DNA from: the human T2T-CHM13v2.0 reference genome, Homo sapiens
Assembly (NCBI GenBank): GCA_009914755.4
Contig: CP086569.2
Coordinates: forward strand, 23,680,001 to 23,744,000
DNA: 64,000 nt
Direction: 5' to 3'
Each line of letters starts with the position of its first letter. Position 1 is the first letter of the stretch. The notes beneath the pieces were generated by a model, which saw only the letters and a program-made list of their open reading frames with translations, did no database searches and was not told where the DNA came from. This document shows positions 22,190 to 64,000 of this stretch, one piece after another. A program made the translations under genes and the position numbers.

Positions 22190-23230
<1,041 letters not shown>

Positions 23231-27343: not shown

Positions 27344-32160
<4,817 letters not shown>

Positions 32161-32642
32161 TGGAAGCATTACACTTAACAATTTCCAAATACAAAATAAA
32201 CCTAAAGTAATCAAAGCACTTTGGTACCAGTATAAAAGTAGAAAAAGAAATTAATGAAGCTGAATGCAGCACAGAAATAAACTTTTGAATAGAGAGGAGA
32301 GACATACCACCTAGATTTTTCATTCAACTATATGTCATAATTCCTTTGGTAAGCAGGACCCACGCAGGAGAGGAGAGTTACACCATTTAGATGCTAATTT
32401 CTGTGATATTTCAAATTTTTTCTGGATGCAGAGAACAATCTGGAGAGACACATAACCTAGCTGATAGGCCAAGAGATATGTGATATTATACCCTCTTGAT
32501 AGAGCTCAAGCAGAAAAATCACATTATTTTGATTCTAACCCAGTGATAAGTAGCAATGCACCCATGGAAAGAAATTTGAGCCAAAAAGTCTCAACACCTG
32601 GGTACTAGACCCAGGGATACGACACAATCTCATCATCTTTGA

Positions 32643-35600
32643 GGGTGACAACTTTAACTTTTAGCTAAACTTGTATATTAGAGTGACAATCTCACATGTT
32701 TGCTGGGACAATGCATGACCCTCTGCAACATCCAAGTGATTTATAAAACCTGCATAAGAGTTGCAAAGCTGTGTGAGGCCTATGTGGTGGTATGGGCTCA
32801 CAATCTTACATATTAACCTAAACCCAGGTTTGATAGTCAAGATCTCTCCTTTAGGCAGGGTTAAGGAAGAAGACCCATTATTATTCCTGTGGGCTGGGTC
32901 TAGAAATGAGTGACCATCCCACTTGTGGCCAGGACCACATATAAATGTCACAATTCCAACTTTGTGCTGCATTCCCTTATTAGACTCATGATCTCGACAG
33001 TGGCATTGTAAATGTGGGATGGTGATAACTTTTAATTTCACCTGGGTATGTAACATAGAGTCCCAATCTGAAGGTTTGGCTGGGCCCTGTTATGAAATTT
33101 TATATCAACAAAGAGTTTATATACTACAGGTTAGTGTTGGAAGCTTCTGTGAGGTTGTTACATATTTGCAACCGAGGACATTGTCTATTGCCCCAAGCCT
33201 AACAGTGAAAGGCAAAATATCTTCTATTGGCTGAATCCCAATATAAGTTTGAACATCATGTCTGTGAACTGAAGCAGGGTATATGTTATAATCCCATATG
33301 TGGACAAAAAGCTAGGCAGGAGGGTAACATCACTTAGATGTTGTGCCAAGCAATATTTCACAATGTCTTCTCTAGGCAGGGCATAGGGAATTTGGTCATA
33401 TTAACTGCATGCTGGACCCAGCAATATGACAACATCCCACATGTGGAAAAAACCCAGCCAAGTTATGAGAACCAAAACACCTGCATGAAGAGACCAAGAT
33501 ATGTCAAAATACGTTAGGTGGCTGCAGCACAGGAGGAAAGTCACATAACAATGGTCCTGGGCCGAGCAATATGCAATATTCCATAAGTTCCTCTATATGC
33601 AGAAGCAAGGCAGAAGAGTAACATCATCTGGGTGCCGGGCCCTGCTGTAGGCCAAAATTCCTGTTTTGCAGGAATGGCTTGGGAAAATGAGGAGAGTCAC
33701 ATAACCTGAGTGCTGGGCTCAGTAATGTGCCAAAATCCTCCTATTGTGAAGGTCCAGGCTGAAAAAGAGAGTCACATCATTTAGGTCATGGGCTCAGAGA
33801 TACGTCCCAATGTCCCCAGTAGTCAGGGCTTAGGCAAACAAGGAGAGTCATATCACCTATGTGCTTCCCTAGAAATATGTCACAGGGTAAAATATGGGCA
33901 GAACTTATGCAGAAGAGCCACAACCCCAGAGTGCTGGGTTCTGAGATATTTCACAAGGTTCTCTTAGGGCAGCACCCAGCAAAGATAGTTAGGTGCGGGT
34001 TCTCTGTTTATGCCACAATGCTCCGTGTGGCCTCCATGTACACAGGGCCCAAGGAGGGAGTCACTTCACCTAGATGATAGGCCCAGAGATATGTCACAAT
34101 GACCTCTATGAAGCATAGCCCTGGCAAAAGTGTACCATCACCTGTGTGTATGGCCTAAAATATATCATTGTCAAGGTTGGCAGGGCCCAAGCAGAAAAGC
34201 CACATAACCCAAAGATAGACCCAGAGACATGTCACAATATCCTTTTGTGGACATGTCTCAGACAAAAGAGTACCCTTCCCTGTGTCCGTGGCCTTGCAAT
34301 GTGTCACTATCTTTCCTTTGTTCAGGGCTCATTTTAGAGAAGAGAGTTACATAACTTATGAGATGGACACAGAAATATGTTACAATATGTTATTATTCAA
34401 GTGGGCGGATCCCGGGAGAGGAGCCATATCATCTCCATAATAGGCCTTTATGGTATGTCAAAATTCCCTCTTTTGGGCATGGCCCTGGAAAAAAACTCAT
34501 CACTTCTGTGCCTGGCCTAGGAATAAGTCACTATTCTGCCCTGTGTGCAGGGTCCATAAAAAAGAGGAGAGTATTGTCTTCTAAGTGATAGGCACAGAGA
34601 TATGTCACAAGAATATGACATCACCTGGGTGGGGATTCAGTGATGTCACAATCTTACTGAGAGCAGGGCCTCAGTACAATAGTGTGTACAATAGTCACAT
34701 TACTTCAAGTTTGACTCAGGTAGATATTAAAATTCCATATGTAGGCTGGAAACTGTCTGAAGAGTGAAATCACACAGGTGCTTGGCAAGATTTTATGCCA
34801 GAATAACGATGGAATTAAATTCTAGGGATGAGATGTAAAATAACACACGTGTCCTGTTTACCTGTAGGAGAGCTGCTTTCATCCATCTGTTATGATGATA
34901 GTCCTTACTGTCAACTGAGGGTGCATACAAGATTCACAATTTTCTCTGTGGGCTAGGACCTGTTATGACACTCTTTATACAAACCAAAGGTGGGATATCA
35001 TGTGTGGGTGTTGTCATGATCTGTGACCTTTTTACCAGAAGGTAAACCTGAACAACACTCATGTCCCAAAAATAGTTATTAGAGTCAAAATTTCTCCTAT
35101 TGTTTCCATTCACATATGAGAGTCATTATCATGCCTGTTAGCTGTGCCTAGGTATAGGTCACAATCCTCTCTCTGGTTATTAAACTGGCAGGACAAACAC
35201 CTCACCTAAATCCTGAGCCAGAAATATTTCAATATTTTCTTTAAAGGTAAGACCCTAACAGAAACTTCACAAAACTTGGGTGCTAGGCAAAGTTCTATGG
35301 CAAAATGGCCCTTGAGGAAAAAGTCCAGGCAGGAGAGGAGAGTCATATAACAAATGATTGACCCAATGATATGTCACAATGCCTCCTGTTGAAAGGCCCA
35401 GGCCAGAGAGTCATGTCATTTGGATGCCATGTTTAGAAATTCTACAGTCTTCACTGGATGCAGGGTTCAGGCAGGAGAGGAGAGTCACATAACCTGGATG
35501 ATGGGTACAGATATATGTTACAATCCCCTCTGAGGTCACTTTTAGACAGGGGAATCAAATCACCAAGGTTCTTGGCATAGGTTTACGTCAAAATGTAATC

Positions 35601-37644
35601 TGTGGGCTATAAGTAGGCATGGTTATTAAATCACATAGGAGCTGGACAATGGCATATGTCACAAAAACAACTGTGGAAAGGTTAAGAAATGAAAGTCACC
35701 ACCTTGCATGTGTCCTGGCTCCAGGTACAATTGTCATTATTAGGGTTTCGGTCTGGTCTCAGGTATATGGAACAGTATCACCTCTGGCAGGGAGAAGAAA
35801 GGAAAGTCACATCATTTGTGTGGGTGCTGGTCCAGTGAAATGTCACAATCCTACCTGTGGGCAGGACTGTGGGAGAAGAGTCTCTTCACCTGGATGCTGG
35901 TTTCAGTGATATATGCAAATCCCCCTTGTGGGCAAGGCTTAGGAAGAACAGTAGACAAACTTCACCTTGGTAATTGGCATGAATATGTGTCACAGTGGCC
36001 ACTATGTGAAGAACCAAGGCAGAAGTGTCACCTAATCTTGGTGCTGCATTCAGCAATATGTCACAATCTCTTTGGTGTTCAGGGCCCAGGCAAGAGAGAA
36101 GAAACATTACCCAGGTGCTGAGCCATGGGATATGTTAAAAAGCCCCCACAAAAAAGAGTCACATCACCTGGGTGCAGTGCCCAGTTATGTTTCACAATGC
36201 ATTGCGAGTTCAGGGCCAAGGTAGTAGAAGGAAGTTACATCACTTATGCAATGCACCTAGGCAGGCAGATCACGAGGTCAGGAAATCGAGGCCATCCTGG
36301 CTAACACAGTGAAACCCCATCTCCATTAAAATACAAAACAAAACAAAAAAATAGCCAGGTGTGGTTGTGGGCACCTGTAGTCCCAGCTACTTGGGAGGCT
36401 GAGGCAGGAGAATGACGTGAACCTGGGAGGCAGAGCTTTCAGTGAGCTGAGATCGCTCCACCGTGCTCCAGCCTGGGCAGCAGAGTGAGACTCCATCTCA
36501 AAAAAAAATAAGCAAAACATAAAAGAAAACAAAAAAGCCACAGTACTCTTCTTAGGCAGGGGTCAGGATAAGATCTCACATCAGCTGTGTGATGGTCGCA
36601 GTGACATGTAAAAGTGCCTTTGTCACATGGCCAAAGAAAGTGTCATCCATTGCATAAGTGTGTGCTGCATGTGTGTCACAATTTCAACCGTGCCCTGGAT
36701 GTAGAAAGTCAGAACACTCAGATATTGACAAAAGTCCACCCTTCTTATCAGTTGGGTCTAAGTACAAGAGTCATAATCTCAACAATGAGCAAGATCCATG
36801 TATAAGAGCCCCAGTCCCACTTGAAGATGGTGTTCCAGTAGGAGACTCACAGCACCACAGTTCACTGAATCATGGTTCAAAAGTCACCAAACAACCTGTG
36901 GATCAGATTCATGTATGGAAGTAACAATTTCAAGCTTCCATTGATTATATCTGTGAGATTTAGTACCTCATATGTAGATGCTGTTAATGTGTGAGAATAA
37001 CAATCATGTCAGCTGGGTGTGAATCCAAGAGTCACAGTAACACCTGGTTTCTGGGGACTGTTATCACACCCTTTGTACCACTCAGGCTTTATGTGATATG
37101 CCTAAATAACATACTTTCCTGTGAATTATTACAGGTGGGTGATCTTGGACTTTACCTTTGTTGATAAGACTGGCTATGAGAGTTGAAACACCTCCCATGG
37201 CTGTGTCTAGTTATAAGAGTTATTATTGGGCATATGAGCTGAATCCAGGTGTATGTCCCAATTTCACCTTTGGACAGAGACAAGACAGAAGAGTCTCATC
37301 ATCTGGGTTCTGATCCAGGGACTCAGTGGTACGTCACAATTTCTTCAGAGAGCAGGATCCAGACAGGAGAGGAGATTCACATTACCTAATGCAATATCAA
37401 GAGCTATGTCCCAGTATTCCCAGTGGACAGGGAACTGGCAGGAGAGACACATGACCTAGCTGATAGAACTAAAGATATGTGACAATATCTGCTGTTTGGC
37501 AGGGTCCAAGCAGAAGAGTGACATTATTATAAATCTAACCCAGAGATATTTCACAATGCACCCATGGAAAAGAATGTAAGCCAAAAGTTCTCAACACCTA
37601 GAGGTACTAGGCCTAGTGATATGACACAATCTCTTCATGTGTTA
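32643..37644. repeat. Higher-order repeat copy 1 (5.0 kb; A-B-D-C landmark order)
   Basis: Landmarks at 32643 (A), 34900 (B), 36690 (D) and 37000 (C). Contains the Alu insertion at 36261-36537. Confidence 0.7.
36261..36537 (+). mobile_element. 5'-truncated Alu (starts ~40 nt into the left monomer) inserted in the satellite
   Basis: ggcaggcagatcacgaggtcaggaaatcgaggccatcctggctaacacagtgaaaccccatctc ... ccagcctgggcagcagagtgagactccatctcaaaaaaaaataagcaaaacataaaag. Confidence 0.88.
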
Positions 37645-40600
37645 GGGTGACACCTTTGACTGTTAGCTAGGTGTGTGTATATAAGAGTCACAATGTCACG
37701 TGTGTTCCGGGTCATCATATGACACACTCTATCATATCTGAAGGCTTGGTATGCATGAGACTTGCAATCTACTATGAGAACTACATGCTGATATTAACTC
37801 ACAATTTTACATATTGCTTTAAATCCAGTTATGATAGTCCACATCTCTCTTATTAGCTGGATTTAGACAGGGGACCCATTATTATGCCCCTGATCTGGGT
37901 CCAGAAATAAGTCACCATCTCACCTGTAACAACATCCACATATGAAACTCACGATTCCATCTTTTTACTTTATTTACATTTTAAACTCAGGGCTTCAGCA
38001 GTGGGATTTGTAAACATGAGATGGGGACAACATTGGCTCCACCTGCATGTGTAATCAAGAATCATGATTTTAACCATCTCCTGGGCCCTTTTATAAAGCT
38101 CTGTGTACCACGCAAGGATTTTATAGAATATGAGTCAGTGTTTTACACTTCTGTTAGCTTTGTTCAGATTTGCAACTCTTAATTGTAATTTAATAGGTAA
38201 ATAGTAATTTACCTATTACTCTAAGTGTAGAAATGAGAGGCAAAATATCTGCTATTGGTGGAATTCCAATTTCAGTTTGATAGTCACACTTCTGAATTGA
38301 AGCAATGTAAATTTCATAATCTCATTTGTAGAAAAAAATTAGCAGCAGAGTAGCACAACTTACATTCTGTGCCAAGCAATAAGTCACATTGCCCTCTCTA
38401 CACAGGGTCTGAAATGCGGGTTACAATATCTGGGTGCTGAACCCAGCAACATGACACAATCCCAAACGTGGATAAATCAAACCCAGACAAATGATGAGAG
38501 CAAATCACCTACAGAATTGGCCCAAGATATGTAAAAATACTTTCTGTTGCTCCAGCAGAGGCAGGAGAGTTACATCATCAGAGTGTGTGTCCTAGCAATA
38601 TGCCATAATTATATCTTTATGCAGAACCCAGTCAGAAAAGGAACACCATCTCAGTGCTGGGCCCAGCAATAGGTCAAAATTCCTTTTTACGGTCATGGTT
38701 CGGGAAAAAAAAGAAGAGTCATATTACATAATTATTGGGCTTAGCAATAGGTCACATTGACCAATTGTAAAAAAAAATAAAAATAAAAAAAATAAAACCT
38801 GCAGAAGAAAAGAGTCACATTACATAAGACACAGGCTCAGATATATGGTCCAATGTCCCAGGTAGGTAGGACTCAGGCATAAGAGAAGAGTCATATCACG
38901 TAGATGCTTCCCTAGGTTTATGAAATAATCTAACGTGTTAGGTGAAACCATGCAGAAGAGTCACATCACTTTGATGCTGGTCTAGAGATATGTCACAAGC
39001 CTCCCTTAAGACAGGACCCTAGCTAGAGAATTACAACAAATGAGTTCAGGTTCTACCCTTATGTTCAATGTGGGCAGAACCCAAGCAGGGAGTCACATTA
39101 TCTAGCTGATAGGTGCAGAGCTATGTCACAATGTCCTCCTTAAGTTATGGTCCTAGTGAAAGGGCACCATCACCTGTGTGACTGGCCTAGCAATATGTCA
39201 CTATTTGAGTAAGCAGGACCCAAGCAGGAGAGCAAATTCACCTAGGTGATAGGTCCAGAGATTTGTCAAATGTCATCTTAAGGACAGGGCCCTCGCAAAA
39301 GAGTGCTGTCACCTCTTTGCCTGACACAGCCATATGTTACTATCCCCCACTGTGTGCAGGGTCCATTCTAGTGTGTAGAGTTATGTCACCTAAGTGGTTG
39401 ACACAGTGATAAGTGCCAGTGATATCTGTGCACATGACTCAGGCAAAAATGTAACATGACCTGAGTGCTGGATCCAGTGATACGTCACAATTCTTACTGA
39501 GAGCAGGGATTGAGCAAAAACATCGCATCACCTAGAGGTTGGCCCAGGTAGATTTCACAATAACATATTGATCTGGAACAAGTCTGAAGAGTCAAATCAC
39601 ACAAGTGCTTGGCCAGCAAGCACAAGATTTATATCACAGACACAGTGGCAGAAAATTACCAGGATGAGATTTAAAATACCACACATGTCCTATTTTCATG
39701 AGTGACATTTGACTTCAGATATGTGAGACAGTGACAGTCCTTACTGTCAGCTGGGTGTGCATATGAGACTCACACTTTCACCTTCCTACTGGGTTCCATT
39801 ATATATACACTCTCAGTACAAGCCAAGGGCTGTTAAAGTCTTCTTTGTCCTTTTTTAAAAGAAAGTGATTTATTCACTCCTGTTTCTGAACGAAGTTATG
39901 AAACTTAAAATTACTCCAATTTCTGGGGTCCACATATGAGGGTTATTATCATGCCTGTGAGTTGTGCCTAGGTATGTGTAACAATTTAATCAGTGGCAAT
40001 GAAATAGGCACAACAGTCAAGTACAACAAATGCTGAGCCAGAAATATTCCAATATTCTCCTTGTTGGCAAGTTTCTGTCAGCAAAGTTGCATAACTTGGG
40101 AGTTACACCCAGATGTATGGCACAATGCCCCTTGTTGGCAGTGTCCAGACACAAAAAGAGACTCATATCACTTAAATGCTAGGCCCAGAGATATGACACA
40201 ATGTCGCATGTTGAAAGGACCAGGCAAAAGAGTCAGATCACTTGGATGCAGTGCTTAGAAATGGTACAATCCCCATTGGAAGCAGTATCCAGGCAGGAAA
40301 GGAGAATTAGATAACTAGATGATGGGTCCAGAGCCATGTTACAATCCTTCTTGAGGATACCGTAAATATAGGAGAGTCAAATCACCAAGGTGCTCAGCCA
40401 AGGTATATATCCAAATCTAATTTGTGGGCCACACGTAGGCAGGATTATTTAGTCTCTTGGGAACTGGGAAATAGTTTATGTCACAATGACACAGGTGGAA
40501 AGTTTCAGGAATGAGAATCACCCTCTTGTATATGACCTGGCTTAAGGTTTAAGAGTCATGATTAGTACTCTTATTTGGCCTCAGGTATATGGCACAGTAT

Positions 40601-42487
40601 CATCTGTGGGCAGAGAGCAAGCAAAAATATCGCATCACCTGGATGGGTGCTGATCCAGTGAGATGTCACAATCTTTCTTGTGTCCAGGACTCTGGAAGAA
40701 GAGTCACTTCACCTGGCTACTGGTTTTAGTGATATATCAAAATTCCTTGTGTGAGCAGGCCTTAAGAAGTTGAGGAGACTTATTTCACCTAGGCAATTGG
40801 CTATATATATGTGTCTCAATGGCTGCTGGTGCAAAACCAAGGTATGAAACTGACCTCACTTTGGTGCTGGGTTTATTAATATGTCACAATCTCCCCTGCT
40901 GTCAGGGTGAGGCAAGAGAGGAGAAACATGACCTATGTGCTGAGCCAAGTGATACTTTACAAAGCTTCCTGTTGACAGAACCCAAAATGGAGAGTCACAT
41001 CACCTGGGTACAGTACCCAGTTTTGTGTCACAATGCACCATAAGTGGAGGGCCAAGGAAGTAGAAGTGACATCACTTACATGATAGACCTAGATATGAGC
41101 CACAATGCCTTTTATAGGCAGAGATAAGGCAAATAATTTACCTCACCTGGGTGCTGGTCCCAGTGATAAGTAAATGTGCAATTTGTAGGCAGGTCCAGGC
41201 ACCTTTGCTTAGTTGTATGTTCCACATATGTCACAAGTTCATCCGTCCTCATGGCCAAAAAAGGAGAGTTAAATTATTCAGGAGTGGGGATAACTTTTAT
41301 GTCCTAATCACACACTAGGAAATATTCAGAAATACATTTCCCAGTCCCACACAAGTCTTGGCTTTGCGTGTGTGAGTCAACACATCCAGTGGCTTGGATC
41401 AAAACAGAGGAGTCACAATCTCAACAATGCACAAGATCCATGTATAAGATGCCAATTCCACTTGAAGATTGTGTTCTAAGAGGAGAGTCACAGCTTCACA
41501 GGTCTGCTGATTCATGCATCACAAAAGGATCCTTGGGTCAGATTTATTTATGAGAGAAAAAATTTCAAACTTCGACTGCTTTTTTTCATGAGATCTAGTA
41601 CGTTATTTGTAGGCCCTATTCTTGTGAGAGAATGACAATCAGGTCATCTGGGTGTGCATCCAATAGTGACAATAGCATCTGATTGTTGTTCCCTGTTATG
41701 ACACTCTTTGTACCACTCACGCTTTACATGATATGCCTGAGTGTCATAATCCTCTGTGAAATGTACACAATTAGGAGACTGATTACTTTACTTATGGCCA
41801 TAAGACTGGCTATGAGAATCAAAATGTCTCCCTTTCTGGGTCGAGGTATGATAGTTATATTTGTGCATGGTAGCTGAATGCAGCTATATGTCACAATTTC
41901 ACCTGTGGGCAGAAATATCACAGGAGAGTCTCAACACATGGATGCCAAGCTCAGGAAACATTATAATCTCCTTTGCAAGCAGGGCCAAGTCAGAAAAGTC
42001 ACATCACCTGGGTACAGCCACAAGTAATATGGTCCCATGTCCACTGTAGACAGGGTTGAAGAAAAAGAGGATAGTAACACCATCTTGGTGCTGGGCTCAG
42101 CAATATGTAACAATCCCCTGTTTTGGCCAACTTCAGAATACAGAGAAGAGTTGCACTGCCTAGGTTTTCCACTCATCGGTATGTCACAATTCCTTTAGTG
42201 GGTAGGACGTAGGCAGGAGAGAAGAGTGACATTTCCTAGATGTTACCCCGATGATGTCACAATGTTCCCTGGGGGCAAATCAGAGGCAAAATAGAAAAAT
42301 CACCTATCAGATAGGCTCAGAGATATGTGATATTATCCCTACTTGGCAGGACCCCAGCAGAAGAGTCACATTATTATGATTCTGTCCCAATGATATGTCA
42401 CAATGCACACATGGAAAACAATTGGAGCCAAAGTTTTAACACCTGGGTACTAGGCCTAATGATATGACAAAATCTCCTCATATTTTA
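37645..42487. repeat. Higher-order repeat copy 2 (4.84 kb)
   Basis: Landmarks at 37645 (A), 39740 (B), 41350 (D) and 41630 (C). Collinear with copy 1. Confidence 0.7.
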
Positions 42488-50265: not shown

Positions 50266-53200
50266 ATGTTGACACCATTGAATGTGAGCTGGGTTTGTAT
50301 ATGAGAGTCACAATTTTCCATGTTTCCTGGGCTGTTGTATGACACTCTACAACATTTTAAGGGTTTATACAGCACGTGTGAGAGTGGCAAACCACTCTGA
50401 CCCCTACATGGTAGTATAGATTCACGATCTTAACATATTGCCCTAAACCCAAGTTTTATAGTCAACATCTCTTCTGCAGGCTGGGTTAAGGAATGAGATC
50501 CATTGTCATGCCTGTGAGCTAGATGTAAAAATGAGTCGCTATCCCATCTGTGGTCAGATCCACATAGGAAGGTCAAAATTCCAACTTTCTACTGTATTTA
50601 CTTTTTAGACTCAGGACCTTAACAGTGGGCTTTGGCCATGTGGGATGGAAACATTTACTTTCACTTGGGTGCATAACCAAGAATCCCAATCTGAACATTT
50701 TGCTGGTTCTTGTCTTGAAACTCTCTGTACCACCCAAGGAGGTTATACACTATGAGTTAGTGCTGTAAAGCTCTGTGAGCTTCATACAAATATGCAACCC
50801 AGGGCCTTACCCATTGCCCAAAGCCTAGTGATGAGAGGCAAAATATCTCCTATTGGCTGACTCCAATATAAGTCTGATCACCAGGCCTGTGATCTCAACT
50901 AAGGCATATGTTGAGATCAAGGTATATGTCAGAGTCCCATTTGTGGGCAAAATGTATGCAGGAGGGTAACATCTCTTTGGTGCTGTGCCAAGCAACTTGT
51001 CACTATGTCCTCCCTTGCTTGGCAGGGTATAGGAATTAGAGTCATATTAAATTGGTGCTGGACTGAGCAAAACAAAACCATCCTACCTGTGGAAGAAACC
51101 CAGGCAAAAGATATCAGAACACCCACATGATGGGCCCAGGATGTGTCAAAATACCTTCTGTGGCTCCAGGACAGTCATGAGTCATGAGATAATGTCCTGC
51201 TCTCAACAGGAAATTATCAGAGTTTTGGCCCCAGCAATATGCCATACTTCTATCTGTATGCAGGACCCAGGCAAAAGAGAAACATCGCCTGGGTGCTGGA
51301 CCTTGCAATAGGCCAAAAATTCGGGTGGTGGGAATGGTTCCAGAAAATAAGGAGTGACAAATAACCTGACTTCTGACCTCTACGATATGTCACAATCCCT
51401 TCTTGTAAAGACCAGGCAGAAGCTGAAAGTCACTTCACTTCAGTCTTGGGCTCAGAGATACATCCCAGTGTCCTCATTATGAAGGGCCCACAAAGAAAAG
51501 TCATATCAACTAGGTGCTTCCCTAGTTATATGTCACAATCTAACATGTGGGCAGAAACCAGGCAGCAGAGCCACACCACCTGGGTACAGCCTCAAGTAAT
51601 ATGTCACTATGCCCAATGTAGACAGTTTACAGTAAAAAAAGAAAATCACACCACCTGGGTGCTGGGCTCAGCAATATGTAATAATTTCCTTTCTTGGTAG
51701 AGTTCAGGACAAAGAGAACATTAATGTCACCTAGGTTTTGCACTCAGTGGTATGTCACAATTTCTTCAGTGGGCAGGATCTGGCCAGGAGAGCAGAGACA
51801 CATTACCTAGATGCTGTATCTAACAATATGACACAGCTGGATATGGGAAGGCCATTGGCAAGAGAGATATATTACCTAGTCAATAGGCCCAGAGATATGT
51901 GAAAATATCCACTGTTTGCAGTTCCCAGGCAGAAAAGTCACATTATTATGATTCTGAACCATTTCTGAACCATGTAGCATTATGGCTCTGAACCATTTCT
52001 GAACCATGTAACATTATTATGATTCTGAACCATTTCTGAACCGTGTAAGAATGCCCTTCTGGAAAAGAATTTATTTTTATTGTTTTTATTTTTATTATTA
52101 TACTTTAAGTTCTAGGGTACATGTGCACAATGTGCAGGTTAGTTACATATGTCTACATGTGCCATGTTGGTGTGCTGCACCCATTAACTCATCATTTGCA
52201 TTAGGTATATCTCCTAATGCTATCCCTCCCCTCTCCCCCTACTCTATGACAGGCCCCAGTGTGTGATGTTCCCCACCCTGTGTCCAAGTGTTCTCATTGT
52301 TCAATTCCCACCTATGAGTGAAAATATGCTGTGTCTGCTTTTCTGTCCTTGTGATAGTTTGCTGAGAATGATGGTTTCCAGCTTCATCCATGTCCCTACA
52401 AAGGACATGAACTCATCCTTTTTAATGTCAGCATAGTATTCCATGGCATATATGTGCTACATTTTCTTAATCCAGCCTGTCATTGATGGACATTTGGTTG
52501 GTTCCAAGTCTTTGCTATTATCGGTAGTGCCACACTAAACATATCTGTGCATGTGTCTTTATAGCAGCATGATTTATAGTCCTTTGGGTATATGCCCAGT
52601 AACGGAATGGCTGAGTCACATGGCATTTCTTGTTCTACATCCTTGAGGTACTGCCAAACTGTCTTCCACAATGGCTGAACTAGTTTATGTCCCACCAACA
52701 GTGTAAGAAACTCTGATGACAGCTTCTTTTGCTGTGCAGAAGCTCTTTCATTTAATTAGCTCCTATTTGTCAATTTTGGCTTTTGTTGCCATTACTGTTG
52801 GTGTTTTAGTCATGAATCCTTGCCCATGCCTATGGCTTGAATGGTATTGCCTAAGTTTTCTTCTAGGGTTTTTATGGTTTTAGGTCTAACATTTAAGTCT
52901 TTAATCCATCTTGAATTAATTTTTGTATAAGGTGTAAAGAAGAGATCCAGTTTCAGCTTTCTACATATGGTTAGCCAGTTTTCCCAGCACCATTTATTAA
53001 ATAGGTAATCCTTTCCCCATTTCTTGTTTTTGTTAGGTTTGTCACAGATCAGATGGTTGTTGATGTGTGGCATTATTTTTGAGGGCCCTATTCTGTTCCA
53101 TTGGTCTATATCTCTGTTTTTGTACCAATACCAAGCTGTTTTGGTTGCTGTAGCCTTGTAGTGTAATTTGAAGTCAGGTAGCATGATGCTTCCAGCTTTG

Positions 53201-56200
53201 TTCTTTTGGCTTAGAATTGTCTTGGCAATGCAGGATCTTTTTTGGTTCCATATGAACTTTAAAGTAGGTTTTTCCAGTTCTGTGAAGAAAGTCATTGGTA
53301 GCTTGATGGAGATGGCATTGAATCTATGAGTCACCTTGGGCAGTATGGCCATTTTCCACAATATTGATTCTTCCTATCCATGAGCATGGAATATTCTTCC
53401 ATTTGTTCATGTCCTCTTTCATTTTGTTTAGCAGTGGTTTGTAGTTCTCCTTGAAGAGGTCCTTCACATCCCTTGTAAGTTGGATTCCTAGGCATTTTAT
53501 TCTCTTTGAAGCAATTGTGAATGGGAGTTCACTCATGATTTGGCTCTCTGTTTGTTATTGGTGTATAGGTCTGCTTGTGATTTTTGCACATTGCTTTTGT
53601 ATCCTGAGACTTTGCTGAAGTTGCTTATCAGCTTAAGGAGATTTTGGGCTGAGACGATGGGGTTTTCTAAATATACAATCATGTCATTTGCAAACAGGGA
53701 CAATTTGAGTTCCTCTTTTACTAATTGAATACCTTTATTTATTTCTCTTGCCTGATTGCCCTGGCCAGAACTTCCAACATTATGTTGAATGGGAGTGGTG
53801 AGAGAGGCCATCCCTGTCTTGTGCCAGTTTTCAAAGGGAATGCATCCATTTTTTGCCCATTCAGTATGATATTAGCTGTGGGTTTGTCATAAATAGCTCT
53901 TATTATTTTGAGATATGTCCCATCAATACCTAATTTATTGAGAGTTTTTAGCATGAAGTGCTGTTCTGTTTATATGATGGATAATGTTTATTTATTGGTG
54001 TATATTGAACCAGCCTTACTTCCAAAGGATGAAGCCGATTTGATCATGATGGATAAACTTTTTGATGTGCTGCAGTATTTTATTGAGGATTTTTGCATCG
54101 ATGTTTATCAGGGATATTGGTCTAAAATTATTTTTTGTTTTTCTGTCTTTGCCAGGCTTTGATATCAGTATGTTGTTGGCCTCATAAAATGAATTAGGGA
54201 GGATTCCCTCTTTTTCTGTTGATTGGAATAGTTTCAGAAGGAATTGTATCAGCTTTTCTTTGTACCTATGGTAGAATTTGGCTGTGAATCCATCTGGTCC
54301 TGGACTTTTTTTGGTTGATAGGCTATTGATTGCTGCCTCAATTTCAGAGTCTGTTATTGTTCTATTCAGAGATTCAACTCCTTCCTGGTTTAGTCTTGGG
54401 AGGGAGTGTGTGTCAAGGAATTTATCCATTTTTTCTAGATTTTCTAGTTTATTTGCCTAGAGGTGTTTCTAGTAGTCTCTGATGGTAGTTTCTATTTCTG
54501 TGGGATCAGTCATGATCTCCCCTTTGTCATTTTTATTGTGTCTCTTTGATTCTTCTCTCTTTTCTTCGTTATTAGTCTTGCTAGCAGTCTATCAATTTTG
54601 TTGATCTTTCCAAAGAACCAGCTCCTGGATTCACTGATTTTTTGAAGGGTTTTTTTGTGTCTCTAACTCCTTCAGTTCTGCTCTGATCTTAGTTATTTCT
54701 TACCTACTGCTAACTTTTGAATGTGTTTGCTTTTGCTTCTCTAGTTCTTTTAACTGTGATGTTAGGCTGTCGATTTTTGATCTTTTCTGCTTTCTCTTGT
54801 GGGCATTTAGTGCTATAAATTTCCCTCTACACACTGCCTTAAATGTATCCCCAAGATTCTGGTATGTTGTGTCTTTGTTCTCACTGGTTTCAAAGAACAT
54901 TTCATTTCTGCCTTCATTTCGTTATGTACCCAGTAGTCATTCATAAGCAGGTTGTTCAGTTTCCATGTAGTTGAGCGGTTTTGAGTGAGTTTCTTAATCT
55001 TGACTTCTTGCTTGATTGCACTGTGGTCTGAGAGACAGTTGGTTATAATTTGTGTTCTTTTACATTTGCTGAGGAGTGCTTTACTTAAAACTGTGTGGTC
55101 AATTTTGGATTAAGTTTGATGTGGTGCTGAGAAGAATATATATCTGTTGATTTGGAGTGGAGAGTTCTGTAGATGTCTATTAGGTCCACTTGGTGCAGAG
55201 CTAAGTTCTATTCCTAGATATCCTTTTAACTTTCTGTCTCGATCTGTTTAATGTTGATAGTGGGGTGTTAAGGTCTCCCATTATTACTGTGTGGGAGTCT
55301 AAGTATGTTTGTAGGTTTCTAAGGACTTGCTTTATGAATCCGACTGCTCCTGTATTTGATGCATATATATTTAGTAAAGTTAGCTCTTCTTATTGAATTG
55401 ATCCCTTTACCGTTATGTATTGGTCGTCTTTGTCTCTTTTGATCTTTGTTGGTTTAAAGTCTGTTTTATCAGAAACTAGGATTGCAACCCCTGTTTTTGT
55501 TTTTGTTTTCTTTTTCTTTTTTTTTCATTTGCTTGGTAAATCTTTCTCCATCCCTTTATTTTGAGCCTATGTGTGTCACTGCACGTCAGATGGGTCTCCT
55601 GAATACAGCACACTGATGGGTCTTGACTCTTTATCCAATTTGCCAGTCTGTGTCTTTTAATTGGAACATTTACCCCATTTACACTTAAGGTTAATATTGT
55701 TATGTGTGAATTTGATCCTGTCATTATGATGTTAGCTTGTTATTTTGCTCATTAGTTGATGCAGTTTCTTTGTAGCATTGATGGTCTTTACAATTTGACA
55801 TGTTTTTGCAGTGGCTTGTACCAGTTGTTCCTTTCCATGTTTAGTGCTTCCTTCAGGAACTCTTGTAAGGCAGACCTGGTGGTGACAAAATTTCTCAGCA
55901 TTTGTTTGTCTGTAAAGGATTTCATTTCTCCTTCACTTATGAAGCTTTATTTGGCTGGATATGAAATTCTGGGTTGAATATTATTTTCCTTAAGGATGTT
56001 GAATATTAGCCCCCACTATCTTCTGGCTTGTAGAGTTTCTGCCAATAGATCCACTGTTAGTCGGATGGGCTTGCCTTTCTGGGTAACCTGACCTTTCCTT
56101 TGGCTCCCTTAACATTTTTTCCTTCATTTCAACTCTGGTGAATCTGACAATTATTTGTCTTGTTGTTGCTCTCCTCGAGGAGTATCTTTTAGGCATTCTC

Positions 56201-57876
56201 TGTATGTTTTTGAATTTTAATGTTGGTCTGCCTCACTACATTGGGGAAATTCTCCTGGATAATATCCTGCAGAGTGTTTTCCAACTTGGCTCCATTCTCC
56301 CCATCTCTTTCAGGTACACCAATCAGATGTATATTTGGTCTTTTCATGTAGTGCCATATTTCTTGGAGGCTTTGTTCATTTCTTTTTACTCTTTTTTCTC
56401 TAAACATCTCTTCTTGCTTTATTTCATTCATTTGATCTTCAATCACTGATATCCTTTCTTCCACTTGACAGAATTGGCTACTGAAGCTTGTACATGCATC
56501 ACATAGTTTTCATGTCATGGTTTTCAGCTCCATCAGGTCATTTAGGGACGTCTCTACACTGTTTATTTTAGTAGACATACATCTAATCTTTTTTTCAAAG
56601 TTTTTAGCTTCTTTGCGATGGGTTCGAACATCCTCCTTTAGCTCAGAGAAATTTGTTATTACCAATCATCTGAAGCCTTCTTCTCTTGACTCGTCAAAGT
56701 CATTCTCCATCCTGCTTTGTTCCATTGCTGGTGAGGAACTGCATTCCTTTGGAGGAGAACAGGCACTCTGATTTCTAGAATTTTCAGCTATTCTGCTCTG
56801 GTGTCTCCCCATCTTTGTGGTTTTATCTACTTTTGTTCTTCGATGCTGATGTATAGATGGGGTTTTTGTGTGGATGTCCTTTCTGTTTGTTAATTTTCCT
56901 TCTAACAATTAGGACCCTCAGTTGCAGGACTGTTGGAGTTTTCTGGAGGCCCACTCCACACCCTGTTTGCCTTGGTATCACCAGCAGAAGCTGCAGAACA
57001 GCAAATATTGCCGAACAGCAAGTATTGCTGCCTGATCATTCCTCTGGAAGCTTCAACTCAGAGGGGCACCCAGTTGTGTGAGGTGTCAGGTGGCCCCTAC
57101 TGGGAGGTGTCTTCCACTTAGGCTACTCGGGGTTCAGGTACCAGTCTGTCCATTCTCAAATCTCAAACTCTGTGCTGGGAGAACCACTACTCTCTTCAAA
57201 GCTGTCAGACAACAATGTTTAAGTCTGCAGAAGTTTCTGCTACCTTTTGTTCATCTATGCCCTGCCCCCAGGGGTGGAGTCTACATAGGCAGGCAGGCCT
57301 CCTTGAGGTGAGGTGGGATCCACCCAGTCCAAGCTTCCTTGCCACTTTGTTTACCTAGTGAATCCTCAGTAATGGCAGATCACCCTCCCCCAGCATTGTT
57401 ACCACCTTGCAGCTCAATCTCAGACTGCTATGCTAGCAGTGAGTGAGGCTCCATGGGCAGGGGACCCTCTGAGCCAGGCACGGGATGTAATCCCCTGGTG
57501 TGCCATTTGCTAAGGCCAGTGGAAAAATGTAGTTTTAGGGTGGGCATGACCCAATTTTCTGGGTACCATCAGTCACGGCTTCCCTTTGCTGGGAAAGGGA
57601 ATTCCCCAATCCCTTGCATTTCCCAGGTGAGGCAATGCCCCTCCCTGCTCTGTGGGCTGCACCCACTGTCTGACAAGCCCCAGTGAGATGAACTTAGTAC
57701 CTCAGTTGGAAATGCAGAAGTCACCCACCTTCTGCATTCCTCACACTGGTAGCTGCAGACTGGAGCTGTTCCTATTCTGCCATCTTGGAAGCTCCTCCCT
57801 GGAAAAGAATTTAAACCAAAAAGTCTCAACACTGGGGTGCCAGGTGAAGGATATGACACAGTCTCCTCAACTATAA
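50266..57876. repeat. Higher-order repeat copy 4. Only ~1.87 kb of native sequence (A block plus ~14 basic units), lacking B, D and C, and split by the 5.7-kb L1 insertion
   Basis: A at 50266. Native sequence runs to 52073 and resumes at 57799. The 80 bp after the L1 (…aaccaaaaagtctcaacactggggtgccaggtgaaggatatgacacagtctcctcaactataa) is the pre-A segment seen at 32590, 37600 and 42440. Confidence 0.65.
52074..57798 (-). mobile_element. Full-length older L1 (L1PA-type; 5' end gggaggagcttccaagatggcagaatag), 5.7 kb, inserted in the satellite with a ~15-bp TSD (C)TGGAAAAGAATTTA at 52059-52073 and 57799-57813. ORFs heavily degraded
   Basis: 3' end in antisense at 52074-52200 (t-rich tail, then ctttaagttctagggtacatgtgcacaatgtgcaggttagttacatatg). 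5' end in antisense at 57770-57798 (ctattctgccatcttggaagctcctccc). Minus-strand ORF fragments 52810-53361, 53533-53811, 53739-53954, 54016-54429, 55476-55724 and 56189-56464 are ORF2 and ORF1 pieces. Uninserted HOR copies carry the undisrupted target c(c/a)tggaaa(g/a)(a/c)aatt..agccaaaa at 32570, 37575 and 42415. Confidence 0.9.
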
Positions 57877-60800
57877 GGGTGACACCATTAACTATTACCT
57901 AGTTGTGTATATGTCAGTCACAAACTCACATGGGTGCTGGCCATAGTATGACACTCTATACAACATCTGAGAACTTTATATAACATGCATGAGAGTTGAA
58001 ACCTCACTGAGGCCTACATGCTTATATGGACTCACGATCTTACATATTGCACTAAACTCAGATATGACAGTCAACATCTCTCTTATATGCTGGCTTCAAG
58101 GATGACAGCATTATTGGGTTTGTGAGCTGGGTCCAGAACTGAGTGACCATCCCACCTGTGGCCAGATTCTTTGATAAAAATTACAATTTCATCTTTGTGC
58201 TGTGTTTACTTATTAGATTGAGGACCTCAACAATGAACGTTGTAAACGCAGGATGGTAATAACTTTTACTTTCACATGAACGTGTTGTGTAAAATCATGA
58301 TACTAACATTTTTCTGGACCCTGTTATAAAATTCTCTACCACCTAAAAAGTTTTTGTGAGATGAGTTATTGTTGTAAAATTCTGTGAGCTTGTTCACATA
58401 TGCAATTAAAGGCTTTACCTACTGACTTAAACCTAGTCATGAAAGGCAAAACGTCTCGTACTGGCTGAATCCCAATAGAAGCATGATCATCATGCTTTTG
58501 AACTGAAGAAAGGTATATGTTATAATCAAATTTGTGGGCAAAAAAAATCGGCAGGAGGTTGATATCACTTAGGTGTTGTGGCAAGAAGTATGACACAATG
58601 CCTTGTCTATGCAGGTCTTAGGAAAGAGGGTCACAATAATTGGGCTCTGGAGCCAGCAATATAACACAACTTCACATAGAAGAAACCCAGCAAAATAAGG
58701 AGACTCAAAACACCTATGGAAATGGGCCAAAGGTATATCAAAATACCTGCTCTGGCTCTGGCACAGGCTGGAGAGTCACATCATTAGTGTGCTAGGCCCA
58801 GAAATATGCTGAAATTCCCTCTTTATGCACGACCTAGGAATAAGTGTAACAGAATCCAGGTGTGGGGCCCTGAACTACAGCAAAAGTCCTGTTTGTAGGC
58901 AATTTTTGGCAACATGATGAGAGTCACATTACCTAATTGCTGGGCTCATCAACACATCACAATCTTCTCATTGTAAAGGCTTAGACAGAATAAGAGACTC
59001 ACATCACTTAGGTCATGGGCTCAAAGATATGGCCCAATGCCACAAGTAGGCAATACTCAGGCAGAAATAAAGAGTCATAACACCTAGATGCTTTTTCAGG
59101 TATATGTCACAATTTCACCTGTGTCCAGTCCTTCCATCCAGTCCTTTCTGTCAGCTGGGTGTGCATACAAGACTCACAATTTCAGCTGTGTGCTGAGCCC
59201 TGCTTTGACTCTGTCTGTATAACCCAAAGACTTTGGAAAATACATGTGAATGTTGTAATCTTTTGTGACCTTTGTAGAAGAAGGCGATACAGGACATCAT
59301 GCATGTCCCTAAATCTAGTTATAAGTGTCAAAATATTCTCTATAGGCTGAGTACACATATGAGAGTCATTATCACTCCTGTGAGTCATGCCTAGGTATCT
59401 GTTACAATATTCTCTGTGGTTATAAAGCAGGAAGAATAGTCATATCACCTAAATGCTGGACTGTACATATTCCAATATTCTCTTTGTAGGCAGGGTCCTG
59501 TCAGAAATCTCACATAATTTCTGTGCTAAATCCAGCTCTGTGGCACAATGTCCCTTGTGGGTAGTGTCCAGACAGAAGAGGAGAGTCATATCACCTAAAT
59601 GTTGGCCCCAAAAATATGTCACAATGACTAATGTTGACAGGGCCCAGAAAAACGAGTCATATCATTTGGATATAGTGTTTAGAAATGCTACAATTACCAA
59701 AGCGAGCTGGGTACAGGCAGGAGAGGGGAGTCATGTAACCTAGGTGATGTGTCCAGAAATATGTTACAATATCCCCTGAGGACATTGTTAAGACAGCAAG
59801 AGTCAAATCACCAAGGTGCTTGGCCCAGGCATTTGACAAAACCTCATTTGTGGGTGATACCTAGGCAGAATTATTAAATCACTCAGGAGCAGTGCAAAGG
59901 TTTATGTCATGATTACACTTGCGGAAACGTTTAAGAATAAGAATAACTCTCCTGAACATATCCTGGCTTCAGGTATATAAGCTGTTACTAGGCTTTTGTT
60001 ATGGTTTCAGGTATATGGCACAATATCACCTCTGGTCAGAGAGAATGCAAGAAAGTCACATCACATAAGTGGCTGTGGCTCCAGTGAGATATCACAATCC
60101 ACCTTGTGGACAGGACCTTTGCAGAAGAGTCACATCACCTGGATGCTGGTTTCAGTGACAAAAACCTCCTTGTAAACATGACTTTGGAAATAGAGGAGAC
60201 TCAATTAACCTAGGCAATTGGCCTAGACATATGTCACAATGGCCCTTATGTACAGTGCCAAGGCTGGAGAGTTACCTTACGTTGGTCAGTGGGTTTGGCA
60301 ATATGTCACAATCTCCCTGTGGCTGGGGCACAGGCAAAAGTGAAGAAACATCACCTTAGGTTCTGAGCCAAGTGATACGTTACAAGGTTTCCTGTTGACA
60401 GAATGCAAAAAGGAGAATCCCATCCCCTGGATGAAGTTCCCAGTTATGTGACACAATGCACTGTAACTGCAGGGCCAAGGCAGTACAAGGGAGTCACATC
60501 ACTTACCTGATGGACCTAGATATAGAACACAATTGTCTTTGTAAGCAGGCTTCAGGCAGATAATTCACATGACCTGGGTGATGGTCTCAGTAATATATTA
60601 AAGTGACCTTTGTAGGCAGAGTCAAGGAAGATATCATATATTGCTTTCATGTTTGTTCCACATATGGCACAATTTCATCTGTGGTCTGAGCCTAGAAAAG
60701 AGAGTCCCGCTATTTATGTGCTGGGCAAAGTTACCTGTCCCAATCACATGCTAAGAAAGGTTTGGAAATAATTTCACATCACACACAAGTCCTGGTTTCA

Positions 60801-60890
60801 CATATGTGAATCAATCCTATTTATGTTAGGCTAAACTAGAGGACTCACAATCTCAACAGTGGACAGGATCCATGTATAAGAGCTCCGATA
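57877..60890. repeat. Higher-order repeat copy 5 (3.0 kb, truncated at the orientation switch)
   Basis: Landmarks at 57877 (A), 59140 (B) and 60780 (D). The ggatccatgtataagag segment that elsewhere continues into cccacttgaagatggtg is cut at ~60890 and joined to the opposite-orientation block. Confidence 0.65.
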
Positions 60891-60894
60891 ACAT

Positions 60895-63800: not shown

Positions 63801-64000
63801 GATAAATATTTGCCGAGTACCTTGTGATTGGACTCTCCAAACTTTTTTCATCCCACATATGTAATTGTGATATGTACCTTGAATAACCTCCAGGTGATGT
63901 GACTGTCCTGCCTGAGCCTTGCTGTCAGTAAGAATCATGACATACCACTAGATCCAGCACCCTGGTCATGTTACATTTTTGCCTGAGCCCTGCCTACAGA
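60895..64000 (+). repeat. Same ~71-bp satellite family in the opposite orientation (attgtgacatat...caccaaggtgatgtgactctcct...ctgcc.acag), continuing past the window end
   Basis: attgtgacatat-type cores at 61016, 61090, 62044, 62115, 62331, 62403, 62474, 62546, 62616 and 62696, with spacing of 70-80 bp. The units are reverse complements of the 32.3-60.9 kb units: ccagcacccaggtgatgtgac against gtcacatcacctgggtgctgg. Confidence 0.85.
63049..63135 (-). mobile_element. Very short Alu 3'-terminal fragment (~55 bp) with a (TTTTC)n/T tail, flanked by a 15-bp TSD GGGATTGTAGCATTT (63034-63048 and 63136-63150)
   Basis: The insert is ttttcttttcttttcttttctttctttttttgttacctaggctggagtgcagtggtgtgatcttagctcattgcaacctctgcctt, which is the antisense of the last ~55 nt of an Alu plus its tail. 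Identical 15-mers flank the insert. Confidence 0.7.

What the first reader, a model, noticed from the sequence alone, without database searches (positions are those of the whole stretch)
32290..60890. 28.6-kb satellite array with ~71-bp units arranged in ~4.8-kb higher-order repeats of very unequal length
The right half of the window is a single tandem-repeat family.
- A ~71-bp monomer (…gagtcacatcacctgggtgctgggcccagcaatatgtcacaatgcc…ggcagggcccaggcagaagag) is iterated hundreds of times.
- Superimposed on it is a higher-order pattern defined by four diverged landmark blocks (A, B, D, C) that recur in fixed order.
- Native lengths of the five higher-order copies are 5.0, 4.84, ~6.8, ~1.9 and 3.0 kb after removing the insertions. 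The array is being reshaped by unequal exchange between monomers, not by clean copy-number change of the higher-order unit.
- Unit length and motif remind me of the Sau3A beta-satellite family (~68 bp) that accompanies ZNF clusters, but the units here are longer and GATC is not periodic.
- A macrosatellite-like higher-order structure of this size, with three dated insertions inside it, is uncommon and may be incompletely described.
Basis: seen in the sequence. Interest (0 to 1): 0.6.

Follow-up and report, generated by a model that had tools for sequence, protein, structure and literature searches.

The report
Old, diverged beta-satellite block beside ZNF genes

Summary
From 32,290 to the window end there are about 239 head-to-tail monomers, spaced mostly 71 or 76 bp apart. 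They form higher-order units of about 4.8 kb (about 66 monomers). Monomers inside a unit are about 56% alike. Their positional partners in other units are about 80% alike and always more than 1 kb away.

- At about 60,890 the array does not end. It flips strand and continues inverted to 64,000.
- A further inverted copy of the array edge plus its unique flank lies at 303-924.
- The family is a diverged beta-satellite.

On the last point, a profile built only from window monomers finds 184 monomers in independently fetched canonical 68-bp beta-satellite, where the canonical profile itself finds 188. The two consensuses share 52 of 68 positions. The canonical GATCAGTGC (Sau3A) block is replaced here by GCTGGGCCC.

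A decayed ZNF91-type zinc-finger pseudogene lies 9 kb upstream. At least 8 paralogous copies elsewhere are closer to one window unit (9-21% divergence) than its own neighbouring unit is (29%). The units therefore diverged first, and the whole block was copied later.

This matches the beta-satellite blocks of the 19p12 ZNF cluster (Eichler et al. 1998). It is already known and of low interest.

The parts
303..775 (-). Inverted fragment of the same satellite, corresponding to unit coordinates about 465 down to 3. It is cut on its left by an Alu (1-302) and by the window start.
   Evidence: 5 monomer hits on '-' at 432-763. 76-78% identity to 32292-32754.
776..924 (-). Non-satellite flank of the array edge, homologous in inverted orientation to 32144-32289.
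   Evidence: One alignment covers 924-319 (reverse-complemented) against 32144-32754: 77.6% over 616 bp, E 5e-136.
22300..23200 (-). Context: decayed KRAB-ZNF zinc-finger pseudogene of ZNF91 type, with many stops and frameshifts.
   Evidence: 84-bp period. Translation shows YKCEECGKAF...HTGEKP fingers with stops. The highest-identity named hits are ZNF429-like (56%), ZNF722-like, ZNF726-like and ZNF723-like.
32144..32289 (+). Unique flank of the array's left edge. The poly-A tail of the upstream L1 runs up to about 32170.
32290..37320 (+). Higher-order unit 1 (5.03 kb; 4.75 kb without its Alu), used as the reference unit.
36259..36534 (+). 5'-truncated AluY-like insertion, present in unit 1 only.
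   Evidence: It matches the window's other Alus at 68-79% and is absent from the other units. The subfamily call rests on my own knowledge of Alu consensus sequences.
37330..42158 (+). Higher-order unit 2 (4.83 kb), collinear with unit 1 at coordinates 42-5012.
   Evidence: 68-74% identity
42159..44790 (+). Unit 3, internally deleted. It holds unit coordinates 21-2066 joined to 3072-3641.
44797..48724 (+). Unit 4, holding unit coordinates 691-4810. It restarts out of register, a signature of unequal exchange.
   Evidence: 71-78% identity
48725..49692 (-). Solo LTR of HERV-K(HML-2) inserted into unit 4, with a 6-bp target duplication AAAAGG.
   Evidence: 95-96% identity to a published human HML-2 solo LTR from bioRxiv 10.1101/382630. 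Flanks read.
49918..51700 (+). Unit 5, truncated (unit coordinates 6-1633, about 1.8 kb).
51700..52060 (+). Start of unit 6 (unit coordinates about 30-270), including a 34-bp x3 local tandem at 51940-52048.
52061..57796 (-). Full-length but dead L1 inserted into unit 6, with target duplication CTGGAAAAGAATTTA.
   Evidence: Flanks read. 85-90% identity to the other L1s of the window. No ORF longer than 183 aa.
57797..60890 (+). Rest of unit 6 (unit coordinates 273-1595, then 2611 to about 4340).
60874..60903 (.). Strand-switch (inversion) junction of the array.
   Evidence: The last '+' monomer ends at 60873 and the first '-' monomer starts at 60904. Sequence read.
60904..64000 (-). Inverted arm of the same array. 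Reading left to right it covers unit coordinates about 450 to 1, 5024 to 4444, 3971 to 3148 and 3160 to 2319. It runs off the window.
   Evidence: 29 '-' monomers. 61266-63048 against 40259-42024 reversed is 80% identical over 1.8 kb. Unit map; the ~450-to-1 stretch is inferred from matches of 60904-61142 to the left-end fragment. Dot plot.

Best explanation
This is a block of old, diverged beta-satellite (Sau3A family) DNA of the type that separates ZNF91-family zinc-finger gene duplicons in the pericentromeric 19p12 cluster. It is non-coding repeat DNA, and its structure records a history, not a working mechanism.

The history I infer has five steps:
1. A monomer of about 70 bp was amplified in tandem. 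The monomer itself looks like an old dimer of a ~36-38-bp unit.
2. A stretch of about 66 monomers (about 4.8 kb) was amplified as a higher-order unit by unequal crossing-over.
3. Homogenisation stopped, and the units drifted to about 70-75% identity. GC content fell to about 42%. The array has no canonical GATCAGTGC/Sau3A block; whether that block was lost or never present is open.
4. The already-diverged block, with its flank, was copied to other places and orientations together with ZNF cassettes by segmental duplication. Out-of-register exchanges and an inversion produced truncated or rearranged units and the strand switch at about 60.89 kb.
5. An AluY-like element, a HERV-K solo LTR and an L1 inserted later.

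Shown here: monomer homology to beta-satellite, the fossil higher-order structure, the inversions, the order 'units diverge, then the block duplicates', and the insertions.

Inferred: the 19p12 location, unequal crossing-over as the process, and any present-day role. The most likely role is passive heterochromatic spacer and substrate for non-allelic recombination.
For: - Monomer and periodicity.
- Homology to beta-satellite. 17 contaminant contigs fetched with a beta-satellite motif are 68-bp arrays, and the pool contains 103 exact GATCAGTGC blocks among about 188 monomers. This fits the literature definition (PMC2671837; bioRxiv 2021.07.12.452052; PMC8125562).
- The window-only profile finds 184 monomers in those contigs, against 188 found by the canonical profile, at the same median score (29 bits) as its own monomers. 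The canonical profile hits 93 window monomers, all inside the array or the left fragment. The consensuses agree at 52 of 68 positions.
- Fossil higher-order repeat: all-against-all monomer identity is 55.7% and adjacent monomers 55.4%. The best partner averages 80%, against 72.7% in a column-shuffled null, and is never within 300 bp. Collinear unit map; dot plot.
- Inversions.
- Block duplication after unit divergence: 26 of 27 metagenome-contaminant contigs are the same monomer family, and 12 align collinearly with window units over 0.5-2.3 kb at 77-92%. In the tree of the 45860-46830 segment, 8 external contigs sit 9-21% from window unit 4. Window unit 2 sits 29% away and pairs with a different external contig at 17%.
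- ZNF context.
- From my memory of the Eichler 1998 abstract, which I could not read here: blocks of about 25-30 kb of inverted beta-satellite with symmetrical higher-order structure bound each duplicon.
Against: - Three textbook features of canonical beta-satellite are not met. Monomers are 71/76 bp, not 68. There is no GATCAGTGC at all, and GATC is at background frequency (2.1/kb against 14.8/kb). GC is about 42%, not 52%.
- The chromosomal location could not be tested, because no human reference is available. The ZNF pseudogene is too decayed to assign to a named gene; its best hits are only 41-56% identical.
- The host species of the external contigs is unknown. Some of the 'paralogues' could be orthologues from another primate.
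- The key paper (Eichler 1998) was not readable here.
Confidence: 0.85

Rival explanations
1. It is a previously undescribed satellite or macrosatellite family that only superficially resembles beta-satellite.
For: - Unit length is 71/76 bp instead of 68.
- There is no Sau3A site and no GATCAGTGC block, and GC is lower.
- TRF does not recognise it.
Against: - The two profiles detect each other's monomers, with the window profile scoring canonical monomers as high as its own.
- The consensuses are 76% identical over the whole monomer.
- The literature already places beta-satellite blocks in a ZNF cluster.
- Highly divergent Sau3A repeats are a recognised category (title of Agresti 1989, listed).
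Confidence: 0.05
2. It is a live macrosatellite, like D4Z4 or DXZ4, still being homogenised and varying in unit number between people.
For: Units are of unequal length and out of register, which shows that unequal exchange happened at some time.
Against: - Units are only 67-79% identical.
- Copies at other loci are closer than neighbouring units.
- An Alu, an LTR and an L1 each sit in a single unit without having spread.
Confidence: 0.04
3. Beyond being a relic, the block has a present function for the ZNF cluster, for example nucleating or bounding H3K9me3/HP1 heterochromatin, or serving as an array of binding sites for a KRAB-ZNF protein.
For: - It sits next to ZNF genes.
- The 19p12 cluster is described as lying in pericentric heterochromatin (PMC7062049). 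It loses methylation and accessibility in HELLS knock-outs (PMC12273238).
- A core of the monomer (AGATATGTCACAAT, CATCACCT) is still the best-conserved part after long decay.
Against:
- Overall decay to about 56% between monomers, and the absence of the proposed protein-binding block GATCAGTGC, argue against strong constraint.
- There is no Rfam family and no ORF longer than 131 aa in native array sequence.
Confidence: 0.15
4. The 'landmark' blocks inside each unit are fragments of ancient transposable elements captured into the repeating unit, so the unit is a composite satellite.
For: - About 26% of the native array (6.5 kb) is not recognised by the monomer profile.
- Beta-satellite units are reported often to include old TE fragments.
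Against: These blocks carry their own 38-bp periodicity (z about 4.5 in two of three block classes) and contain monomer-like motifs. This points to degenerate or half-length monomers, not TE pieces. No TE library was available to test it directly.
Confidence: 0.1

Closest known systems
Beta-satellite blocks of the 19p12 KRAB-ZNF (ZNF91 family) cluster (Eichler et al. 1998, Genome Res 8:791)
   Same: - A diverged beta-satellite block of about 25-30 kb lies beside a ZNF91-type zinc-finger gene relic.
- It has higher-order structure and inverted arms.
- Many paralogous copies exist, and it is of ancient (early primate) age.
   Different: Nothing was found that differs. I could not read the paper to compare the reported unit size with the 4.8-kb, 71/76-bp organisation measured here. 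I also could not prove the chromosomal location.
Canonical beta-satellite (Sau3A family, BSR/Beta; pB3/pB4 arrays on chromosome 9 and the acrocentrics; distal to D4Z4)
   Same: - The monomer is homologous, with 52 of 68 consensus positions shared, including the AGAGATATGTCACAAT and ACATCACCT cores.
- It is arranged in tandem with multimeric higher-order repeats.
   Different: - Monomers are 71 or 76 bp, not 68.
- The conserved GATCAGTGC/Sau3A block is replaced by GCTGGGCCC.
- GC is 42% against 52%.
- Units are 67-79% identical instead of near-identical.
- There are no LSau elements.
Macrosatellites (D4Z4 3.3 kb, DXZ4 3 kb, RS447 4.7 kb, SST1 arrays flanking the 19q13 ZNF cluster)
   Same: Kilobase-scale tandem units. 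SST1 arrays likewise neighbour ZNF clusters.
   Different: Macrosatellite units are highly similar to one another and polymorphic in number, and several carry genes. Here the units are fossil, built of about 66 satellite monomers, and carry no ORF.

Membership tests
Beta-satellite (Sau3A family, BSR/Beta) | Monomer sequence homologous to the beta-satellite monomer | tested here: met
   The window-only profile finds 184 monomers in the canonical contigs, where the canonical profile finds 188. The canonical profile hits 93 window monomers, only in the array. Consensus identity is 52/68. The canonical set was obtained independently and fits the published definition.
Beta-satellite (Sau3A family, BSR/Beta) | Head-to-tail tandem monomers of about 68 bp | tested here: inconclusive
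   The arrangement is tandem and head-to-tail. The spacing modes are 70-71 and 76 bp (median 71), not 68. The 68 profile positions align, with an extra 3-8-bp linker.
Beta-satellite (Sau3A family, BSR/Beta) | Conserved GATCAGTGC block / one Sau3A (GATC) site per monomer | tested here: not met
   There are no GATCAGTGC in 26 kb of array, against 103 in 12.5 kb of canonical sequence. GATC is 2.1/kb against 14.8/kb, no higher than the rest of the window at 2.7/kb. The block reads GCTGGGCCC here.
Beta-satellite (Sau3A family, BSR/Beta) | Multimeric higher-order repeat organisation | tested here: met
   There is a unit of about 4.8 kb (about 66 monomers). Positional partners are about 80% identical against about 56% for neighbours. 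The units are old (67-79% identical), not homogeneous.
Beta-satellite (Sau3A family, BSR/Beta) | GC-rich (about 52%) | tested here: not met
   The array is 40-44% GC against 52% reported for beta-satellite. This is consistent with long decay.
19p12 ZNF-cluster beta-satellite blocks | Lies between or next to ZNF91-family KRAB-ZNF genes or pseudogenes | tested here: met
   A ZNF pseudogene lies at about 22.3-23.2 kb, 9 kb from the array. The highest-identity named hits are ZNF429-, 722-, 726- and 723-like. That ZNF429, ZNF726 and ZNF723 are 19p12 genes is my own knowledge.
19p12 ZNF-cluster beta-satellite blocks | Large block (about 25-30 kb) with inverted arms and higher-order structure. This feature is recalled from the 1998 abstract and was not read here. 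| tested here: met
   There are 24.7 kb of native satellite in the window (31.7 kb with insertions), cut by the window end. The strand switches at about 60.89 kb. An inverted edge copy lies at 303-924.
19p12 ZNF-cluster beta-satellite blocks | Many paralogous blocks in the genome | tested here: met
   At least 8 distinct external contigs are collinear with one window segment at 9-21% divergence. The host species of those contigs is unknown.
19p12 ZNF-cluster beta-satellite blocks | Maps to human chromosome band 19p12 | not testable with these tools
Macrosatellite (D4Z4/DXZ4 type) | Kilobase units highly similar to each other, with unit number polymorphic | tested here: not met
   Units are 67-79% identical, and single-unit TE insertions have not spread. 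Polymorphism was not testable.

The most novel reading that the evidence does not exclude
The 19p12-type repeat may be an older sister lineage of canonical beta-satellite, not merely a decayed copy of it. It has 71/76-bp monomers, GCTGGGCCC in place of the GATCAGTGC block, a clearer internal half-repeat, and 38-bp-periodic landmark blocks. On this reading it keeps the ancestral ~36-38-bp dimer structure. That would date the origin of the family to before the ZNF91 cluster expansion, and would suggest the Sau3A/GATCAGTGC block is a later innovation of the pericentromeric and acrocentric arrays.
Probability: 0.25. Interest if true: 0.35.

Novelty: already known. Interest (0 to 1): 0.12.

Why it matters
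It matters little for discovery. It confirms that the window lies in a ZNF gene cluster interspersed with beta-satellite, and it gives a clean worked example of a fossil higher-order repeat. The units diverged first, the block was then duplicated with its flank, and retroelements arrived last.

In practice, the interval should be masked or annotated as diverged BSR/Beta. Its inverted arms and multi-copy paralogues make it a likely source of mis-assembly and non-allelic recombination in the ZNF cluster.

Tried and rejected
- TRF on the whole window found only one 139-bp row in the array. The copies are below its identity limit, so I replaced it with autocorrelation and an iterated nhmmer profile.
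- The Eichler 1998 paper could not be read by DOI or PubMed id. Waye & Willard 1989 (PMC297815) and the Altemose 2022 PMC copy are also not held. I used citing papers and the bioRxiv version instead.
- Full-text searches for a printed beta-satellite consensus found only primers. I therefore derived canonical beta-satellite from contaminant contigs.
- The protein search with the ZNF pseudogene translation gave over 1000 generic KRAB-ZNF hits ranked by multi-finger score. Only the percent-identity column was informative.
- Rfam found no family in the window.
- ORF listing found nothing coding in the array.
- A TE origin for the landmark blocks could not be tested without a repeat library.
- Absolute dating from divergences was rejected as unreliable. 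Unit-to-unit distance (JC about 0.37) would give an age above 90 Myr at usual primate rates, older than the family is thought to be. I therefore use only the relative order of events.
Full report

Yes.

- Base-match autocorrelation in 32290-52000 peaks at lag 71 (0.294 against a median of 0.255, sd 0.008). There are further peaks at 76 and 70 and at the half-period 36-38.
- The same peaks are present in 57800-60890 and also in 61200-64000. They are absent from two control stretches of the window.
- I started from one monomer read in the sequence and iterated an nhmmer profile to convergence. It found 244 monomers.
- Of these, 210 are on the + strand between 32300 and 60873, 29 are on the - strand between 60904 and 63974, and 5 are on the - strand at 432-763. 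None lies in the 31.5 kb between.
- Start-to-start spacing is bimodal, at 70-71 bp (the mode) and 76 bp.
- The profile consensus is AGTCACATCACCTAGGTGCTGGGCCCAGAGATATGTCACAATCTCCTCTGTGGGCAGGACCAGGCAGA.
- TRF reports only one 139-bp row, as expected for copies below about 70% identity.

**2. Higher-order structure**

Self-BLAST gives collinear alignments of 0.5-2 kb at offsets of 4.8-5.0, 6.8, 9.85, 12.6 kb and more, with 67-79% identity.

I mapped everything onto unit 1 (32290-37320):

| Unit | Window coordinates | Unit-1 coordinates covered |
|---|---|---|
| 2 | 37330-42158 | 42-5012 |
| 3 | 42159-44790 | 21-2066 joined to 3072-3641 |
| 4 | 44797-48547 | 691-4810 |
| 5 | 49918-51575 | 6-1633 |
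| 6 | about 51700-52060 and 57797-60890 | about 30-270, 273-1595, 2611 to about 4340 |

The ancestral unit is about 4.75-4.85 kb, or about 66 monomers.

At monomer level the pattern is the classical higher-order signature:
- All-against-all identity is 55.7%, and adjacent monomers are 55.4% identical.
- Each monomer's best partner averages 80%, against 72.7% after column shuffling.
- That best partner is never within 300 bp and is usually 4-25 kb away.

**3.

- The coordinate 60890 is not the end of the array. The last + monomer ends at 60873 and the first - monomer starts at 60904.
- From there the same array runs inverted to the window end. For example, 61266-63048 is 80% identical to 40259-42024 reversed; the unit map is.
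- At the far left of the window, 319-924 on the - strand aligns at 77.6% to 32144-32754. That stretch is the first 460 bp of the array plus about 150 bp of its non-satellite flank.
- So the 31-kb stretch holding L1s, Alus and a zinc-finger pseudogene is bracketed by inverted copies of the array edge.

**4. Insertions**

- A 5'-truncated AluY-like element sits at 36259-36534, in unit 1 only.
- A solo HERV-K(HML-2) LTR sits at 48725-49692 on the - strand. It is 95-96% identical to a published human HML-2 solo LTR and is flanked by AAAAGG.
- A full-length but dead L1 sits at 52061-57796 on the - strand. It is flanked by CTGGAAAAGAATTTA and has no ORF above 183 aa.
- Native satellite in the window amounts to 24.7 kb.

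**5. What family is it?**

My recollection of the beta-satellite monomer suggested homology. Primers known to lie in beta-satellite contain the shared core: a D4Z4/pLAM distal primer and ROCK1P1 primers.

To test this independently I scanned the bacterial-genome collection for GATCAGTGCAGAGATATGTCACAAT.
- This returned 17 short, low-coverage contaminant contigs.
- All are tandem arrays with a 68-bp (67-69) period, and the pool holds 103 exact GATCAGTGC blocks among about 188 monomers.
- That fits the published description of beta-satellite: a 68-bp monomer, originally the Sau3A family, with a conserved GATCAGTGC block in most monomers (PMC2671837; bioRxiv 10.1101/2021.07.12.452052; PMC8125562).

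Results of the comparison:
- The profile built only from window monomers detects 184 monomers in these contigs, where the canonical profile detects 188. Its median score of 29 bits is the same as it gives its own monomers.
- The canonical profile hits 93 window monomers, all within the array or the left fragment.
- The two consensuses agree at 52 of 68 positions.
- The main difference is that GATCAGTGC is replaced by GCTGGGCCC. The array contains no GATCAGTGC at all, and GATC is at background frequency (2.1/kb against 14.8/kb in canonical arrays).
- GC is 40-44% against the 52% reported for beta-satellite.

This is a diverged beta-satellite.

**6. Context and relatives**

- On the - strand at about 22.3-23.2 kb lies a zinc-finger pseudogene with YKCEECGKAF...HTGEKP fingers, stops and frameshifts.
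- Among more than 1000 KRAB-ZNF hits, the highest identities are to proteins named ZNF429-like (56%), ZNF722-like, ZNF726-like and ZNF723-like. ZNF429, ZNF726 and ZNF723 are 19p12 genes of the ZNF91 family by my own knowledge.
- A scan of metagenome contigs for a window-type 21-mer returned 27 low-coverage contigs. Of these, 26 consist of the same diverged monomers. Twelve align collinearly with the window's units over 0.5-2.3 kb at 77-92% identity, and none is identical.
- In a tree of the segment 45860-46830, eight external contigs lie 9-21% from the window's unit 4. Two of them are identical to each other, so this is at least seven other loci for that clade.
- The window's own unit 2 is 29% away and pairs with a different external contig at 17%.
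- The units had therefore already diverged when whole blocks were copied to other loci.
- Caveat: the host species of these contigs is unknown.

**7. Comparison with what is known**

- It states that beta-satellite occurs on chromosome 19 (PMC8125562).
- It states that the cluster lies in pericentric heterochromatin and arose about 50 Myr ago.
- All of these papers cite Eichler et al. [quoted passage not shown] I could not open that paper.
- From memory, its abstract describes blocks of about 25-30 kb of inverted beta-satellite repeats with a symmetrical higher-order structure bounding each ZNF duplicon. That is what this window shows.
- The finding is therefore an instance of a known feature. 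It is not a macrosatellite in the D4Z4/DXZ4 sense, because the units are 67-79% identical and single-unit insertions have not spread.

**8. Mechanism**

The best-supported account is historical:
1. A monomer of about 70 bp was amplified.
2. A 66-monomer unit was amplified by unequal crossing-over.
3. Homogenisation was lost and the sequence decayed.
4. The block was duplicated segmentally, in part inverted, together with its flank and ZNF cassettes. Out-of-register exchanges produced the truncated and rearranged units 3-6.
5. Retroelements inserted.

A present-day role in heterochromatin or as a recombination substrate is plausible but untested here. There is no Rfam family and no ORF longer than 131 aa in native array sequence.

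**9. Side observation**

- The parts of each unit that the monomer profile does not recognise lie at unit coordinates about 340-1000, 2510-2850 and 4250-4940. They make up about 26% of the native array.
- They recur in fixed order and carry a 38-bp periodicity.
- The window consensus is itself an internal half-repeat (22 of 2000 shuffles score as well).
- Canonical arrays show weaker bumps at lags 33 and 35.
- This suggests the beta-satellite monomer is an old dimer, and that the 19p12 form may be closer to the ancestral state. This is the only mildly novel reading, and I give it low probability and modest interest.

**10. Verdict**

Novelty: already known. Interest: about 0.12.

Noticed in passing
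window 32640-33261, 34805-35134, 36540-37232 and their homologues in the other units: The 'landmark' blocks of each unit are not recognised by the monomer profile but show a 38-bp periodicity (z about 4.5 in two of three block classes). The 71-bp consensus is itself an internal half-repeat (GTCACATCACCT... / GTCACAATCTCCT...). Canonical beta-satellite contigs show weaker bumps at lags 33 and 35. The monomer may be an ancient dimer of a ~36-38-bp unit.
   Followed up: partly
window 48725-49692 (-): Solo LTR of HERV-K(HML-2), 95-96% identical to a published human HML-2 solo LTR, with a 6-bp target duplication AAAAGG. It points to a hominoid, probably human, source for the window.
   Followed up: yes
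window 52061-57796 (-): Full-length L1 with an intact 15-bp target-site duplication (CTGGAAAAGAATTTA) but no ORF above 183 aa. A 34-bp x3 local tandem (51940-52048) lies immediately beside its insertion site.
   Followed up: partly
window 22300-23200 (-): Decayed C2H2 zinc-finger pseudogene (84-bp finger period, many stops and frameshifts). The highest-identity named relatives are ZNF429-like, ZNF722-like, ZNF726-like and ZNF723-like. KRAB exons were not looked for.
   Followed up: partly
window 11731-16509 and 27343-32103 (+); 2908-6474 (-): Two L1 copies in direct orientation are 91% identical over 4.8 kb. A third, inverted copy is about 90% identical. The second copy ends with its poly-A tail almost exactly at the left edge of the satellite block.
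   Followed up: no
window 1-302, 7691-7981, 16965-17269, 19178-19480, 24024-24333, 26389-26693, 26795-27099: Seven Alu copies in the non-satellite half, against a single truncated one in about 25 kb of native satellite. Retroelement density looks lower inside the array.
   Followed up: no
loci L001-L017 (bacterial genome assemblies) and L018-L044 (metagenome assemblies): Short, low-coverage contigs deposited as bacterial, archaeal or metagenome sequence are primate beta-satellite, that is, host contamination. L037 and L042, from different assemblies, are identical over the compared segment.
   Followed up: partly
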